Part shown: piece by piece, positions 37,495-53,119 of the stretch
Layout: each line of letters starts with the position of its first letter
Position numbering within the stretch: the first letter of the stretch is position 1
From: the human T2T-CHM13v2.0 reference genome, Homo sapiens
NCBI RefSeq assembly: GCF_009914755.1
Contig: NC_060932.1
Reading direction: 5' to 3' (one strand)
Length of the DNA: 64,000 nucleotides
The notes under the pieces: model-generated
The model's input: only the letters and a program-made list of their open reading frames with translations
Databases searched by the model: none
What the model was told of the DNA's origin: nothing
Position numbers and translations under genes: made by a program

Positions 37495-37540
37495 CAGGAG
37501 ACTCTCTGAAGACCAGCAGGAAAGCAGTGAGCCCTTACAG
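37495..37540 (+). other. SLC7A2: 46-nt non-coding second exon
   Basis: Acceptor cattgcttctccCAG|CAG (NAGNAG) and donor ACAG|GTTAGT; no ATG. The size agrees with my recollection of the SLC7A2 5'UTR exon layout. Confidence 0.6.
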
Positions 37541-45641: not shown

Positions 45642-46515
45642 TTGGCACACTGTCGTCCACAATGGCTGAACTAATTTACATTCCCACCAACAGTGTAAAA
45701 GCGTTCCTATTTCTCCACAGCCTTGCCAGCATCTATTGTTTCTTGACTTGTTAATAGTCACCATTCTGACTGGTGTGATATGGTATCTCATTGTGGTTTT
45801 GATTTGCATTTCTCTAATGATCAGTGATGTTGAGCTTTTTATCATATGTTTGTTGGCTGCATGAATGTCTTCCTTTGATAAGTGTCTGTTCATATCTTTT
45901 GCCCGCTTTTTGATGGAAGACAGTGTGGCCATTCCTCAAGGATCTAGAGCCAGAAATGAAATACCATTTGGCCCAGCAGTCCCATCATGGGGTATATACC
46001 CAAAGGAATAGAAATCATTCTACTAGGAAAACACATCCAAACCCATGTTTATTGCAGCACTGTTTACAATAGCAAAGACATGGAACCAACCCAATGCTCA
46101 TCAGTGAGAGACTGTATAAAGAAAATGTGCCACATATACACCATGGAATACTATGCAGCCATAAAAAGGAGTGCGATCATATCCTTTGCAGGAACGTGGA
46201 TGAAGCTGGAAGCCATCATCCTCAGCAAACTAATACAGGAACAGAAAACCAAACAGGACATGTTCTCACTCATAAGTCGGAGTTGAACAATGAGAACACT
46301 TGGATACGTGGAGGGGAATAACACACACTGGGGCCGGTTGAGGAGTTGGGGGCGAGGGGAGGGAGAGCATTAGCACAAATAGCTAATGCATGCGGAGCTT
46401 AAAACGTAGATGGCAGGTTGATAGGTGCAGCAAACCATGGCACACGTATACCTACGTAGCAAAGCTGCACATTCTGCACTTATATCCTGGAACTTAAAGT
46501 AAAATTAAAAAAAAA
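45642..46515. mobile_element. L1PA 3' fragment with 5' inversion (twin priming)
   Basis: 45642-45915 is antisense ORF2 3' region; 45914-46515 is sense ORF2 end/3'UTR with polyA. Imperfect TSD aaaaaa(g/t)ct(g/a)tagaa. Confidence 0.9.
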
Positions 46516-47495
46516 ATCTATAGAAAAAAGTTAAGCATTTTCTCCTTAACTTCTTCATCCCTAGTCCTGCAGCGTTGATGTTTCCAGCACTTTTATTTCA
46601 GTGCCTAGGAAGAGGGAGGAGTTGTTAAAGAATCAGAAGAACCCTAAGTACTTTTCCTCTTTCTCAGTCGTTGGTTGTGTAGTCATTGTTTCACAAGTTT
46701 TTAAATGGAGCTAGGGAGGGCTCAGTGCTTGATTTGAATTAGACTAATACAGTTACTGGTTTTTGACATCCTGTTATTACATTTGTTGTACAAATTATTC
46801 ACAGAATAGATAGAATTCAGTCAGTTCAGTTCTTATTCAAGTAATATAATCTATCGCTAAACCATTAAACATTATACATTAACATATTGACTATACTTTA
46901 AAAAAGCTACTGGCAGAAATAACTGAAGGTGACGTTTTTCAAGGATAATAATCATTTTATAATTACTGTTAGAAGCTAATAAACTGGGGGCTTTACAATT
47001 CTAAACAAAAACCTTCCCACTTGAAAAAATTTTCCATTTAAAATTTAGACTCTGAAAGTTAAAATTTAGAGGGCTGGAACCCATGCTAGGGCTGGCCACC
47101 AAAATTTATGTTCTTTCTATACCCCACCTCCTAACACACTGACACTATGGAACTATGTTGTGATTTCACAACATGATCTGTCGTTCTGTAAGAAAATAAT
47201 CTCATTTGGAAATCTTTGGCGTACTTGGCTGAAGATAAATTCTAAAGTTTCCTTTTTCTTCTTTTAAGACATAGTTGTTCAGTGGCTATGGAATGCTTCT
47301 GGAGCACAGAACTTCTCTTTGTACTTAGGTAGAGACATACACAAAAAGGACATGGATGTCCTGTGAGCTCTTAGAACGTATATCGTATGTCAGGCTTTAA
47401 TTCGTGTTTCTCTGTCTCTCTATGTGGAGTAGAGTAACAAAAGATATGGCTTTTTTTCAAGGCCCTGGAGACACACAGTCCAAAATCCATCATTA

Positions 47496-47852
<357 letters not shown>

Positions 47853-47869: not shown

Positions 47870-48600
47870 CCCCCTATATTTAAAATCGCAGTTAGTAGAC
47901 ATAACACAAAATTTACCATCTTAGCCAAGGGTTCAGTAGCATTAAATGCATTCACATCGTTGTACAACAGATTTCTAGAACTTTTTAATTTTGCAAAACT
48001 GAAACTCTGTACCGTTTAATCAGTTTCCCGTTTCCCCTTCCCTTCCGCCCTGGCCAACCACCATTCTACTTTCTGTCTCTGTGAATTTGACTGCTCTAGG
48101 AACTTTATACATGTGGAATCAGACAGTGTTTTGCCTTTTTGTGGCTGGATTATTTCACTGAACATGATGTTCTCGAGGTTCATCCGTGTTGCAGCATGTG
48201 TCAGAATTTCCGTCTATTTTAAGGCTGAATAATAGTCCATTGTATGTATAAAGCACATTTTATTAGTCCATTTCTCCATGATAGACACTTGGGTTGCTTC
48301 CACCGTTTTGTAGAATGCCTTTTGTGATTGCTTTCATGAACGATGCTGCTGTGAACGTGGCTGTGCAAATATCTCTTCAAGACCCTGCTTTCAGTTTTTT
48401 TGGTCATATAACCAGTAGTAGAATTGCTGGATCATATATTAATTCTGTTTTTAGTTTTTTGAGGAGCTGCCATATTGTTCCCCACAGCAGTGGCTATTTT
48501 ACATTACCGTGGACACAAGGATCCCAATTTCTGCATATCCTCATCAATACATGTTATTTTCTGGGTTTTTTTTCTTTTTGTAGTAGTCATCCTAAGGGAT
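47870..48600 (-). mobile_element. L1MB-like 3' end
   Basis: Antisense L1 3' sequence (cataacacaaaatttaccatcttagcc...gaattgctggatcatat). Confidence 0.8.
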
Positions 48601-48759
48601 ACTGAAGTCTGAAGGGTTTTTATAATTATAAGTTTGCTCTAAACTGAAACAAAAACCAGAATCATCCACTTTTACCTCCATTCACACAAAAGGAAGTTTA
48701 AAACCTGCCTGGTTTGTTTCCATGATTTTAAAAGATAGAAAAAGTTCCATTTATTTTAA

Positions 48760-50114
48760 AAGAGAAGATTTTATTTTTCTCATTTCAGTAAAGCTTATCA
48801 CAGGATCTCCATTGCCTTTATCTTTATCACTGTTGTGGTTCTCAGATTTGAGGTAGTTGTGATTCATAAAGTTGAACAAGTAGAATCTGCTGAGATGAGG
48901 CCTTAATTGATCATTTTTACAAGACATCATTTTTGGCAGAATCAAATGATAGTGAAGCTAGCCTAAGAAATAACTGTGGAATCTAAGAAGCGAGGCAAGG
49001 ACATTTGACCAAGCAAAATTGACTTTTTGTCCCACTTACAACAGCGCTAAGAGGGAAAGTTTCGTTCATTCTCAGATTAAGTTATAGGTAAGTGGATTAC
49101 ACCAGAGCACATATTGCCAAAAACCTGTCATCCTGCTCAACATTTCTACCTCTAAAAAAGTAGCAATCAAGTTCTATTTATTCTGAGGATCAGTTATATT
49201 CTATATTCATGTGTATAATGGCAGGGATTTAAAAATAATCTGGGTAAATTTGAACTGCAAATAGCATGTAAATATCACTGACCCGTAATAGTCTTAGTTC
49301 TTCTCTACAAGGGTATATGGTCAGCCCTTATTGGGAGTAAAAACACCTCGGCACATTAGTGAGGCTTCCTTGACCCCACAGAGTCTCTCAGCAATTTCAT
49401 CCCAATTCCCTGGATCCAGGTAAGTAACAGACATGAATGAAACAGGCTAGTGCAAAATAGAAAGGGGTGGTGGCAAACTGTGTTAAACCAAAGAGGAATC
49501 AATTAAAAAAAAAATACAGTGTGTCCCAAAACACGCATTTGAGTTGGGAGCAGTGATTGATCCAACATTTATAGAGAACCCTGCAGAGTCCCTGACATTG
49601 TGGGAAGAATAGAAGTAGAATGAGCCCAGAAAACCCGTGTTTTTATTTTAGATTTCTTTAAATACGTGAGAATACAATGGCATATAATGCAATATTTTCC
49701 CTTCTCAAAAATATATCTAGAAAGAAAGAGATGGGGAAATGCACAGCAGCCGTTGGTGGAGGTTGACCCTGGAAGCTAATTCTAGAATAACTTAAAAATG
49801 TAAGTTGTTCAGGTTTCCCTTTTATAGCTGTTCTGAGTAGCACAGAAACTCAATTTTGCTTGGTAGAAGGTCCTTGCCTTGCTTCTTAGATTCCACAGTC
49901 ATTTCTTAGGCTAGCTTTACTATCATTTGATTCAGCCAAAGATGATGTCTTATAGAAATGTTCAATAAAGGCCTCATTCCTAAGCAGATTCTACTTGTTC
50001 AAGTTTATGAGTTACAACTACCTGAAGTCTCAGAATCATAGCAGTAATGAGCATAAAGGCAGTGGAGACCCTGTGATAAGTTTTACTGAAATGAGAAAGA
50101 TAAAATCTTCTCTT
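48760..50114. repeat. Long imperfect inverted repeat: arms 48760-49058 and 49814-50114, 755-nt spacer
   Basis: Manual alignment of arm 2 to the reverse complement of arm 1 gives ~87% identity over ~300 bp, e.g. ttgaacaagtagaatctgct / agcagattctacttgttcaa and actgtggaatctaagaagc / gcttcttagattccacagt. Confidence 0.95.
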
Positions 50115-50504
50115 AGTTTAGAATATGAATATTTCTGGTATTTGATACTGTTATTGTCTGGGCCAAGTGGATAAAACAGCGTTTCATTTCTGATCTTGTA
50201 GGAAATTGTTTTATGTAATGAGTACATACATGGGTAGAGCTATATTGGTAAAGGCAGTGCCTACTATGCTGAATTAAATATTCCATGCAAGGGTACCAGG
50301 AAAAGGGGAGGGACTTTATAGTTGCTAACACTGAAAAAAGATTTGTTGCATCAGATGAACCTTTAAACTTAAGAAACGTTTACCAACTCAATATTTATTT
50401 GATCTAAATAGTCAGTATGTAATGGTGTGATACACCCGGTACTTTTCCAAAGTCATCAATAATGAGGACATAGCTTGTGGTTTTTAATTTTTTAGTCCCT
50501 GTGA

Positions 50505-50833
<329 letters not shown>

Positions 50834-51439
50834 TGATTGCCATTTTTCTGAAGGATGGGGATGTTGAGTGGGGTGGCGGGTTTTTGGCAATGTGTGCTTT
50901 GCTGTAATGTACCTACCCATATCTGACTATTGGTTTATACAGTACAGAGAACCATGGGCTAAGCCTTACTTTTCAGCCACAAAATAAAAATCCTATCATT
51001 AAATCTTAGAATCTGAGTTGGCAGATAACCTTGTCTAATACCCTTCTAACTAAAACTGTTCCACAAAATTCCTCAATCAACTGTCCTCTGTTTTAAGTAA
51101 TGACAGACATCTGATAGCTTTAGTGGTGGCAGCTTCTTATGGGTAGGAACACTTTTTATTAGGGAGATTTGCATTTTATTGGATCAATGCCTTACTCTTT
51201 TTATATGATATCCTTTATTAGTAGTTCTGTCTTCTGAAGTAAATACATAGGATCATTGCCTTCCTACATCTTGCCATTCATGTATTTAAAGAAAGTTATC
51301 ATCTCTTTTCTATGTCTTTTTCCCTAAGAATGAAAAGAAACTAAATATAGCAATAATACCTATTCGTGATTCTAAAACTTTTTGCTATTTGTCAGACACT
51401 TTGCTTGTCCACTTACTCCTTACGATAGTTCTATAACTG

Positions 51440-51764
<325 letters not shown>

Positions 51765-53119
51765 TATGTGTTGTCTGTTTTAAAGATGAGAAGACCGAGA
51801 TGCCAGTGACTTGTCCAAAGACACATGGGTGGTAACTCGTAGAGATTATTAGCTAGCTCAGGGCTTCTTCCCTCTTTGGGCCACAGCTGTACCCTTGCTT
51901 ATTGTACCTGAACACCTGCAGTTTCTTTCATTGCTCTTTAAGTGATGACATGGTCTCCCAGACCCCTCACCCCATCCAGTTGACTCTTCACTGAACTTAA
52001 CTGGTCAGCACTTAAGAAAAAGATGGTTTAAGCATTCAAGAAAAACATGGATGCCAAGTATCCATTGATTCAGGAAATATTTGAGTATCTGCCATGTGCC
52101 AAGCACTCTAGGTATTTGGGATAAACCAGTGAACAGAGCAGTCAAACAAATCCCTGTCTTCATGCATGGTACACTGAGGGTTCATGTTGTGGCTTAGTCC
52201 CTGTCCCCACAATCAACACTGAAGAGGACTTTGAAATAGGGGACAGAAAAGTTGCAGAAGCAGGCTTGTGCTGTTAAGGCATTAAGGTGGGAATTCTATA
52301 CGAAAAGTTCAAATGATGTATTAAATATGGATCCAATATCTCTGCTCACTCCCCCTTTGCATCACTTTAAACACACATTCCTTGCATGGATTAAGAAAAT
52401 AATGTTGACTTTAACTGACTTATACTCATTTATTTCTAGGCACAAAATGAGACCAAACAAAAACTTGGCAATAGAAGGAAGAGGTTCCTGATATTATCAG
52501 AGGTCATTCGAAATAAAATCCAGGCAAAATGAAACCACAAAAGATGTGATTTGTAGGGCCAGAAGACTTTGCTTGTTCTGAAATGTGTTTTGAATTCAAG
52601 AATATGAAGAGAATCAAGAATATTAGACATTGAGAAGCCCAGAGATGGGTTAGAAATGAACTGGATAAATTGTAAAATGCACACAAGTGTACTAGAAAAT
52701 GTTACATGTTTTGGTGAAGGCCGTGAAAATCTTCAGCTGCTTATTGTAGGTAACCTTCTTCTATTAAATCATGGGAGATTTTTCTAGCTTAGAGGTATAA
52801 GTTTTAATGTGTGTTGGAATTTTTAATACAGACTTAAGTCCTGATGCTTATCTAGTATCTTTCTTTGTTCTTAAACATTGATTTTCCCGTATTGCTTACC
52901 TTTAATAACTATTACATTTTCAGTTTTAAGGCAGTAATAGTTCATGAATTTGAAAAGTTAAAATCTATTGGAGATGAAGTTTTACAATTCTGAAGTCTTT
53001 CAAATATATTTTTGGTAACATCTTGATGACCTTCAAATTTTCTTTCATCAGCGGAGTGTTAGGGGGCTGCCGAGAGCCTGGGAACTGCTAGCATTCTGTT
53101 TCTCACTGCTTCTGGGTTA

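What the first reader, a model, noticed from the sequence alone, without database searches (positions are those of the whole stretch)
48760..50114. Long intronic fold-back (~300-bp stem) with G-U-biased mismatches on the sense strand
Seen: 49814-50114 is the reverse complement of 48760-49058 at ~87% identity, with ~38 substitutions and one small indel by hand count. I do not recognise the arms as Alu, L1, MIR or a DNA-transposon TIR. Of ~24 transition differences, ~19 give G-U wobble pairs and ~5 give A-C mismatches if the + strand (the presumed SLC7A2 pre-mRNA) folds. Symmetric decay would give roughly equal numbers. Inference: the stem may be maintained as an RNA duplex, for example an ADAR substrate, a hairpin/endo-siRNA precursor or a splicing-control structure. 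Caveat: transcription-associated A>G mutational asymmetry also enriches G-U pairs.
Basis: partly seen in the sequence, partly recalled or inferred. Interest (0 to 1): 0.8.

Follow-up and report, generated by a model that had tools for sequence, protein, structure and literature searches.

The report
Single-copy fold-back in SLC7A2 intron
A 307-base inverted duplication that is not a transposon sits in an intron of the human SLC7A2 gene and would fold into a long RNA hairpin, but it has decayed at the neutral rate, so its unusual excess of G-U pairs is a modest unexplained oddity rather than evidence of a maintained RNA structure.

Summary
48752-49058 is the reverse complement of 49814-50125: 307 aligned positions, 267 Watson-Crick (87%), 20 G-U, 5 A-C and 15 transversion mismatches on the + strand. 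Both arms, the 755-nt spacer and the flanks are unique to this locus in the whole genome. There is no target-site duplication, so this is a local inverted duplication, not a transposon. A second inverted homology (49080-49169 / 50834-50924, 76%) interleaves with the first, which points to a multi-step template-switch or repair origin.

Using 26 Alus of the same gene as a clock, the arms show neutral amounts of change. Transversions are 15 against 14.9 expected; transitions are 25 against 23.6 expected. Pairing is therefore not being preserved.

Sense-strand A>G exceeds T>C 1.54-fold locally. That predicts 56% G-U, against 80% observed (predictive P = 0.014; 0 of 168 inverted Alu pairs reach 0.80). 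The non-nestable second pair shows the same bias (13:5). This favours a mutational cause or chance over selection.

The transcript would still form a duplex resembling edited dsRNAs. Editing, small RNAs and cross-species conservation could not be tested here.

The parts
48752..49058 (+). Left arm (A) of the inverted duplication
   Evidence: Local alignment to the reverse complement of 49814-50125: 267 of 307 positions complementary. blastn E = 1.8e-87. The only other genome match is the right arm.
49059..49813 (+). 755-nt spacer (the loop of the fold-back); its first part holds segment B
   Evidence: Unique in the genome except for the B/B' match. No Rfam match.
49814..50125 (-). Right arm (A'), the reverse complement of A
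   Evidence: The genome search finds only itself and the left arm.
49080..49169 (+). Segment B, 21 nt after arm A; second inverted homology
   Evidence: Aligns to the reverse complement of 50834-50924: 90 positions, 69 complementary (76%), 13 G-U, 5 A-C, 3 transversions. No other genome match.
50834..50924 (-). Segment B', the inverted copy of B. It lies beyond A', so the order on the + strand is A, B, A', B' (interleaved, not nested)
50126..50536 (.). Unique sequence between A' and the Alu
   Evidence: No other genome match for 49814-50535 apart from arm A.
50537..50833 (-). Alu inserted next to B' (minus orientation, poly-T first). Not part of the duplication
   Evidence: Metazoa_SRP-like hit at 50554-50700 on the - strand. 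Alu alignments. Target-site duplication beginning TGATTGCCA read by eye.
47485..47799 (+). Plus-oriented Alu that forms an inverted pair with the Alus at 50544-50857 and 51475-51788, enclosing the fold-back
   Evidence: blastn: 80% and 82% identity in inverted orientation.

Best explanation
This is a locus-specific inverted duplication that is not derived from a transposon. It lies in the SLC7A2 intron that follows the exon at 37495-37540. It most likely arose in one complex replication or repair event with template switching. That event copied about 307 bp (A) and about 90 bp (B) of nearby sequence in reverse-complement orientation and in permuted order. Since then the copies have decayed like neutral DNA. 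Each arm is about 6.5% diverged, the same as the non-CpG divergence of the Alus in this gene, so the event is roughly Alu-aged. This dating is inferred and needs other primate genomes. Because the gene is read from the + strand, the pre-mRNA can fold into a stem of about 307 bp that is 93.5% paired counting G-U, with a 755-nt loop. On physical grounds such a duplex is expected to be bound and edited by ADAR like an inverted Alu pair. This is inferred and was not shown here. Nothing indicates that the pairing is preserved by selection. The G-U excess comes partly from transcription-linked A>G over T>C asymmetry on the sense strand, measured here at 1.54-fold. The remainder is sampling noise in 25 transitions.
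For: Uniqueness: the arm query gave 2 of 2 candidates, itself and its partner. The spacer, right arm plus flank, and left arm plus B gave only local matches. The same tool found more than 40 copies at 69-76% identity of the neighbouring repeat, so it can see old repeats. No direct repeat flanks the arm ends (sequence read). Interleaved second homology. Neutral decay: expected G-U 13.2, A-C 10.4 and transversions 14.9, against observed 20, 5 and 15. Per-copy divergence is 0.065 against Alu 0.068. The transition-to-transversion ratio is 25:15 in the arms and 233:130 in the Alus. Local asymmetry: A>G 52 against T>C 35 (rates 0.0427 and 0.0278), and C>T 73 against G>A 73. This matches the published pattern of a global [A>G]/[T>C] above 1 and [C>T]/[G>A] near 1 beyond the first 1-2 kb of a transcript (PMC2927911, section 5 read). 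Non-Alu sequence of the gene has G/C 1.08 and T/A 1.08. No Rfam family matches in the arms.
Against: The measured background predicts only 56% G-U (bootstrap range 0.50-0.62). The predictive P of 20 or more out of 25 is 0.014. Pooling B/B' gives 33 of 43 and P = 0.0065. None of 168 inverted Alu pairs of the same gene reaches a G-U fraction of 0.80: the maximum is 0.783, the mean 0.51 and the SD 0.10. 'Background plus chance' therefore requires an event of about 1 in 70. The Alu pairs are not independent of each other, and Alus may not represent AT-rich unique sequence. A/A' (13% diverged) and B/B' (23%) differ in divergence. One event explains that only if A/A' was later homogenised or if B mutates faster. 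Template switching is inferred from the architecture alone, because no ancestral state was available.
Confidence: 0.6

Rival explanations
1. The origin is the same neutral, non-transposon one, but the G-U excess is real. In this reading it comes from an additional strand-specific mutational process tied to the fold-back. One candidate is damage to exposed single-stranded DNA during the template-switch or break-induced synthesis that made the copy, giving + strand C>T in the left copy. Another is an elevated sense-strand A>G rate in a region whose RNA or non-template DNA folds back.
For: The excess appears in both A/A' (20:5) and the non-nestable B/B' (13:5). Comparing the left copy with the reverse complement of the right copy, one class dominates: T/C 22, G/A 11, A/G 6 and C/T 4. 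Transversions and the total of transitions are neutral, as expected if only the direction of transitions is shifted. Only 2 of 33 G-U sites lie in a CpG context.
Against: Clustering of G-U sites is not significant (scan-statistic p = 0.06-0.25). The 22 against 11 split between arms is not significant on its own. The changes cannot be polarised without an outgroup. Sequence contexts are mixed and fit neither an APOBEC-like nor an ADAR-like preference clearly (read by eye). The overall signal is P about 0.01 from a feature picked out after the fact.
Confidence: 0.2
2. The stem is kept by selection as a functional RNA duplex in the SLC7A2 pre-mRNA, for example as an ADAR-edited element, a hairpin small-RNA precursor or a splicing or retention control. 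G-U pairs would be tolerated and A-C pairs removed.
For: The G-U:A-C ratio of 20:5 exceeds the local background. The + strand fold is 45-57 kcal/mol more stable than the - strand fold. The longest uninterrupted helices are 45, 33 and 30 bp on the + strand, against 37, 20 and 18 bp on the - strand. The mouse orthologue uses an edited inverted-repeat structure in an alternative 3' UTR, CTN-RNA (PMC4889969, passages read). That structure is a different region and a different sequence.
Against: Fifteen transversion mismatches match the neutral expectation of 14.9, and per-copy divergence equals that of the Alus. Selection that removes A-C but spares C-C (5), G-G (2), A-A (2) and G-A (4) mismatches is implausible. 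B/B' shows the same bias but crosses the A/A' helix. No Rfam family matches. In a genome-wide prediction, conserved dsRNAs were short (median 65 bp) and weakly structured, and over 99% of predicted dsRNAs were not conserved (PMC11838218, passages read).
Confidence: 0.1
3. The arms are terminal inverted repeats of a DNA transposon, or two opposite-orientation copies of one interspersed repeat.
For: The geometry fits: 300-bp arms with a spacer under 1 kb. Repeat libraries (Dfam, RepeatMasker) were not available, so a very old or very low-copy family cannot be formally excluded.
Against: There is no other copy anywhere in the 3.1-Gb genome for the arms, spacer or flanks. The same search finds 69-76% identical copies of a neighbouring repeat. 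Two copies 87% alike would imply a young family with many similar copies. No target-site duplication is present. The arms are not among the masked stretches listed in the hub's annotation.
Confidence: 0.04

Closest known systems
Inverted Alu pairs in introns and UTRs (the main human ADAR substrates)
   Same: About 300-bp arms, about 85-87% complementary, a loop of about 1 kb or less, and location in a pre-mRNA. The size, percentage paired, contiguous base pairs (45) and stem energy (-424 kcal/mol) resemble the medians reported for edited dsRNAs: 297 bp, 84.7% paired, 31 contiguous bp and -410 kcal/mol (PMC11838218 Table 1).
   Different: The arms are single-copy sequence, not a SINE. They can therefore pair only with each other. 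Editing was not observed here.
Non-repetitive predicted dsRNAs of the human genome (dsRNAscan catalogue, PMC11838218)
   Same: An intramolecular duplex whose arms overlap no repeat family. That paper predicts about 0.5 million such duplexes, of which 4,597 are edited (passages read).
   Different: This one is long for the class, whose medians are 144 bp for edited and 75 bp for unedited members. Whether it is listed there is unknown, because the supplementary tables could not be opened.
Reverse-complement repeats created by replication template switching (Monttinen and Loytynoja 2022, PMC8794818; ODIRA and other template-switch models, search listing)
   Same: A nearby sequence copied in reverse complement produces a ready-made hairpin in one mutational event. 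The permuted, two-segment structure (A then B, against B then A in the source) fits several switch points.
   Different: The events documented in those papers are mostly short (tens of bases) or very large (copy-number variants). No ancestral sequence was available here to show the switch points.
Mouse CTN-RNA, the nuclear-retained Slc7a2 isoform with an edited structured 3' UTR (Prasanth et al. 2005, as described in PMC4889969)
   Same: It is the same gene family member, with an intramolecular dsRNA in the transcript.
   Different: CTN-RNA's structure lies in an alternative 3' UTR of the mouse gene and, as I recall, is built from inverted SINEs. The present element is deep in a 5' intron of the human gene and is made of unique sequence. 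No homology was tested or implied.
Hairpin-RNA (hpRNA) endo-siRNA loci of Drosophila and mouse oocytes, and plant proto-miRNA inverted duplications
   Same: A long inverted duplication that can be transcribed into a hairpin.
   Different: Those loci are defined by Dicer-dependent small RNAs and by targets homologous to the arms. Here there are no small-RNA data, and no other genomic sequence is homologous to the arms, so there is no trans target.

Membership tests
DNA transposon with terminal inverted repeats | Further copies of the element or its termini elsewhere in the genome | tested here: not met
   The arm, the spacer, and the arm-plus-flank queries each match only this locus. The tool's sensitivity is shown by 69-76% hits to a neighbouring repeat.
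DNA transposon with terminal inverted repeats | Target-site duplication directly outside the two termini | tested here: not met
   The bases left of 48752 and right of 50125 share no direct repeat of 4 bases or more (read).
Two opposite copies of one interspersed repeat (SINE, LINE or LTR) | Family members at similar identity elsewhere, and assignment by a repeat library | tested here: not met
   There are no other genome matches. Dfam and RepeatMasker were not available, so the library assignment itself was not tested.
Curated RNA family (Rfam 15) | Covariance-model match | tested here: not met
   cmscan of 48000-51200 at E of 1 or less gives only three sub-threshold hits, all inside the Alu at 50554-50702.
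Structured RNA under selection | Disruptive mismatches depleted relative to neutral expectation | tested here: not met
   Transversion mismatches are 15 against 14.9 expected. Transitions are 25 against 23.6. Per-copy divergence is 0.065 against 0.068 for the Alus.
Structured RNA under selection | Compensatory (covarying) changes across species | not testable with these tools
   No other mammalian genome is held. Only the window's own assembly could be searched.
ADAR substrate / editing-enriched region | Long, largely uninterrupted intramolecular duplex in a transcribed strand | tested here: met
   307-bp stem with 287 of 307 positions paired counting G-U. The longest helices are 45, 33 and 30 bp on the sense strand. 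The stem energy is -424 kcal/mol.
ADAR substrate / editing-enriched region | Clusters of A-to-G mismatches in RNA reads | not testable with these tools
   No RNA-seq or editing database was available.
Hairpin small-RNA (endo-siRNA) precursor | Phased 21-23-nt reads from both arms, and a trans target homologous to the arms | tested here: inconclusive
   No homologous sequence exists elsewhere in the genome, so there is no trans target. Small-RNA reads could not be tested.
Template-switch inverted duplication | Reverse-complement copy of nearby sequence absent from the ancestral state, with defined switch points | tested here: inconclusive
   A nearby reverse-complement copy is present, along with a second copied segment in permuted order. 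The ancestral state and the junctions could not be tested without outgroup genomes.

The most novel reading that the evidence does not exclude
The sense-strand G-U excess may be a true footprint of the RNA fold-back. Either the roughly 300-bp duplex in the SLC7A2 pre-mRNA is used (for example as an ADAR-bound element affecting processing or nuclear retention, echoing the edited CTN-RNA structure of the mouse orthologue), or long intronic dsRNA regions suffer an editing- or structure-coupled excess of sense-strand A>G mutation beyond ordinary transcription asymmetry. The second version would be a general and testable mutational phenomenon.
Probability: 0.1. Interest if true: 0.65.

Novelty: new member of a known kind. 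Interest (0 to 1): 0.3.

Why it matters
Long, nearly perfect intramolecular dsRNAs built from unique sequence are rare compared with Alu-derived ones. They are of interest as ADAR, MDA5 and Dicer substrates. This one lies in a gene whose mouse orthologue is the textbook case of regulation by an edited inverted repeat. The work here shows a clean example of a hairpin-forming inverted duplication that is not a transposon and has aged neutrally. It also shows that a sense-strand G-U bias alone is weak evidence for a maintained RNA structure. Transversions and the total divergence have to be checked against a local neutral clock. The residual bias (P about 0.01) suggests a cheap genome-wide test: do intronic non-repeat inverted repeats in general carry more sense-strand G-U than the local A>G asymmetry predicts?

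Tried and rejected
- **Transposon or repeat origin:** rejected on genome-wide uniqueness and the absence of a target-site duplication.
- **Known RNA family:** no Rfam hit in the arms.
- **CpG decay as the source of G-U pairs:** only 2 of 33 G-U sites lie in a CpG context, and CpG decay is strand-symmetric in any case.
- **Hypermutation clusters:** a run of 10 G-U-type changes at 49126-49153 looked like a cluster. Scan statistics were not significant (p = 0.06-0.25).
- **Sequence contexts of the 22 T/C-class sites:** read by eye for APOBEC-like or ADAR-like preferences. They were mixed and undecidable without polarisation.
- **Simple nested duplication or a single inversion:** neither reproduces the order A, B, A', B' (reasoning).
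- **More homology between the spacer, the 418-bp stretch after A' and the flanks:** none at E of 5 or less with word size 6, beyond A/A', B/B' and the Alus.
- **Composition skew as an independent gauge:** it gave only a modest asymmetry (G/C 1.08, T/A 1.08) and cannot explain 80% G-U.
- **A second background estimate from the old repeat at 47879-48599:** not attempted. Its family is unidentified and the sample would be too small.
- **Literature:** a search for SLC7A2 with 'inverted repeat' and 'A-to-I' returned 9 papers. I opened only PMC4889969. Its passages concern the mouse CTN-RNA 3' UTR. From the titles and abstract openings of the other eight, none appears to describe this intronic element.

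Full report
**1. The observation**

The inverted repeat is real. The repeat finder reports 48895-49058/49814-49977 (164 nt) and 48760-48894/49980-50114 (135 nt), both 87% complementary. A gapped alignment joins and slightly extends them to 48752-49058 against 50125-49814. That alignment has 307 aligned positions, 267 Watson-Crick, 40 mismatches and two small indels. blastn E = 1.8e-87.

Read as a fold of the + strand, which is the sense strand of SLC7A2 according to the hub's annotation, the mismatches are 20 G-U, 5 A-C and 15 transversion-type.

Both strands fold into the long stem, but the + strand is more stable:
- 48730-50150: -603.8 against -547.1 kcal/mol.
- Arms alone: -424.4 against -379.1 kcal/mol.

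**2. What the arms are**

A search of the window's own 3.1-Gb assembly with the left arm returned two candidates only, itself and the right arm. Three further queries also matched nothing outside this locus: the spacer (49059-49813), the right arm plus flank (49814-50535), and the left arm plus segment B (48610-49170).

The tool can see old repeats. A query that included the neighbouring 47879-48599 returned 9208 first-look candidates. Of the 40 candidates scored, the matches to that repeat were 69-76% identical.

Two independent copies of an interspersed family that are 87% alike would imply many similar copies elsewhere, and there are none. The bases just outside the arm ends share no target-site duplication. 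Rfam has nothing in the arms. I conclude that this is a local inverted duplication of unique sequence. Dfam and RepeatMasker were not available, so this rests on copy number, not on a library.

**3. A more complex architecture**

A second inverted homology exists: 49080-49169 (B, 21 nt after arm A) against 50834-50924 (B'). It has 90 aligned positions, of which 69 are complementary. On the + strand the order is A, B, spacer, A', 418 bp plus an Alu, B'. The two pairs therefore cross each other and cannot be nested helices.

A single inverted duplication or a single inversion does not give this order. Copying two nearby segments in reverse complement with several template switches does. This is the kind of event described for replication template switching (PMC8794818, abstract and passages; other models seen only in the search listing). 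It is inferred from architecture alone.

B/B' is more diverged (23%) than A/A' (13%). Either the longer pair was later homogenised, or B mutates faster, or the events differ in age.

**4. A local neutral clock**

I fetched the rest of the gene and found 35 Alu matches across the 105.7 kb. I aligned 32 of them, dropping three partial hits of 173 bp or less. Of the 32, 26 lie inside SLC7A2. I counted non-CpG differences from their majority base on the sense strand, leaving out columns whose minor base exceeds 15%:

| Change | Count | Rate per site |
|---|---|---|
| A>G | 52 | 0.0427 |
| T>C | 35 | 0.0278 |
| C>T | 73 | 0.0504 |
| G>A | 73 | 0.0507 |
| Transversions | 130 | 0.0242 |

A>G exceeds T>C 1.54-fold, while C>T and G>A are equal. 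This matches the published pattern (PMC2927911, section 5). The six upstream Alus show no such excess, but that sample is small.

Applied to the arms' composition, the rates give these expectations:

| Class | Expected | Observed |
|---|---|---|
| G-U | 13.2 | 20 |
| A-C | 10.4 | 5 |
| Transversions | 14.9 | 15 |

Per-copy divergence is 0.065 for the arms and 0.068 for the Alus. In amount of change, the arms look like neutral DNA of about Alu age.

**5. Is pairing preserved?**

No. Selection for a duplex should remove transversion mismatches, and they are at the neutral number. Only the split of the transitions is unusual. A-C is among the least disruptive mismatches, so a filter that removes A-C but leaves 5 C-C, 2 G-G, 2 A-A and 4 G-A mismatches is not credible. 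The non-nestable B/B' shows the same direction of bias (13 G-U: 5 A-C). That fits a mutational cause better than selection on one hairpin.

**6. Is the G-U excess explained?**

Only partly.
- The background predicts 56% G-U (bootstrap over Alus 0.50-0.62).
- The predictive probability of 20 or more out of 25 is 0.014. For A and B together (33 of 43) it is 0.0065.
- Among 168 inverted Alu pairs of the same gene, the pooled G-U fraction is 0.52, the per-pair mean 0.51 and the SD 0.10. The maximum is 0.783, so 0 of 168 reach 0.80. These pairs are not independent of each other.
- CpG decay is not the cause: 2 of 33 G-U sites lie in a CpG context.
- Comparing the left copy with the reverse complement of the right copy, the classes are T/C 22, G/A 11, A/G 6 and C/T 4. 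The excess therefore sits mainly where the left arm has T and the right arm has G on the + strand.
- Clustering is not significant.

Without an outgroup I cannot tell + strand A>G in the right arm from + strand C>T in the left arm. A residual of about 1 in 70, found in a feature noticed after the fact, does not outweigh the neutral divergence. It is recorded as unexplained (note).

**7. What it probably does**

The transcript can physically form a 307-bp duplex that is 93.5% paired. Its uninterrupted helices reach 45, 33 and 30 bp, and the loop is 755 nt.

These values sit at or above the medians reported for edited human dsRNAs: 297 bp, 84.7% paired, 31 contiguous bp and -410 kcal/mol (PMC11838218, Table 1 text). 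I therefore expect promiscuous ADAR editing wherever the intron is transcribed, as a by-product and not as a maintained function. This is inference.

The same paper reports that over 99% of predicted dsRNAs are not conserved, and that conserved ones are short.

**8. What could not be done**

No other mammalian genome, no RNA-seq, editing or small-RNA data and no repeat library were available. The human editing-enriched-region table of PMC4889969 and the dsRNAscan tables may list this interval.

The literature search for SLC7A2 with 'inverted repeat' and 'A-to-I' returned 9 papers. I opened only PMC4889969, whose passages deal with the mouse CTN-RNA 3' UTR. From the titles and abstract openings of the other eight, none appears to describe this intronic element.

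**9. Verdict**

'Maintained RNA duplex' is not supported, although the G-U bias is only partly explained. The element is best filed as a new example of a known kind: a non-repetitive intronic inverted duplication that can form dsRNA. Interest is modest.

Noticed in passing
window 47485-47799, 50544-50857, 51475-51788: The fold-back is enclosed by an inverted Alu pair. A plus-oriented Alu upstream is 80% and 82% complementary to two minus-oriented Alus downstream. In the pre-mRNA these would compete with or reinforce the unique stem, and they are the more likely editing targets.
   Followed up: partly
window 50521-50536 and 50826-50842: The minus-oriented Alu at about 50537-50833 has a target-site duplication beginning TGATTGCCA. 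Its downstream copy forms the end of segment B', so the Alu inserted right at the edge of the second homology (read by eye).
   Followed up: partly
window 47879-48599: An old interspersed repeat gave 9208 first-look candidates. The copies scored elsewhere in the genome were 69-76% identical. They share one end near 47896 and vary at the other, which is the 5'-truncation pattern of a minus-oriented LINE-like element. The family was not identified.
   Followed up: no
window 46081-46253 and 48130-48302: A weak inverted homology (68% over 174 nt). One side falls inside the old repeat above, so these are probably two diverged copies of one family.
   Followed up: no
window 29599-105697 (SLC7A2; window plus L003-L007): Alus of the gene carry a sense-strand A>G over T>C excess of 1.54-fold with C>T equal to G>A. 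Non-Alu sequence has G/C 1.08 and T/A 1.08. This is a textbook transcription-associated asymmetry, usable as a local neutral reference.
   Followed up: yes
window 50573-50702: Sub-threshold Rfam hits to mir-1268 and mir-3135 lie inside the Alu. They reflect Alu-derived miRNA families, not genes at this site.
   Followed up: no
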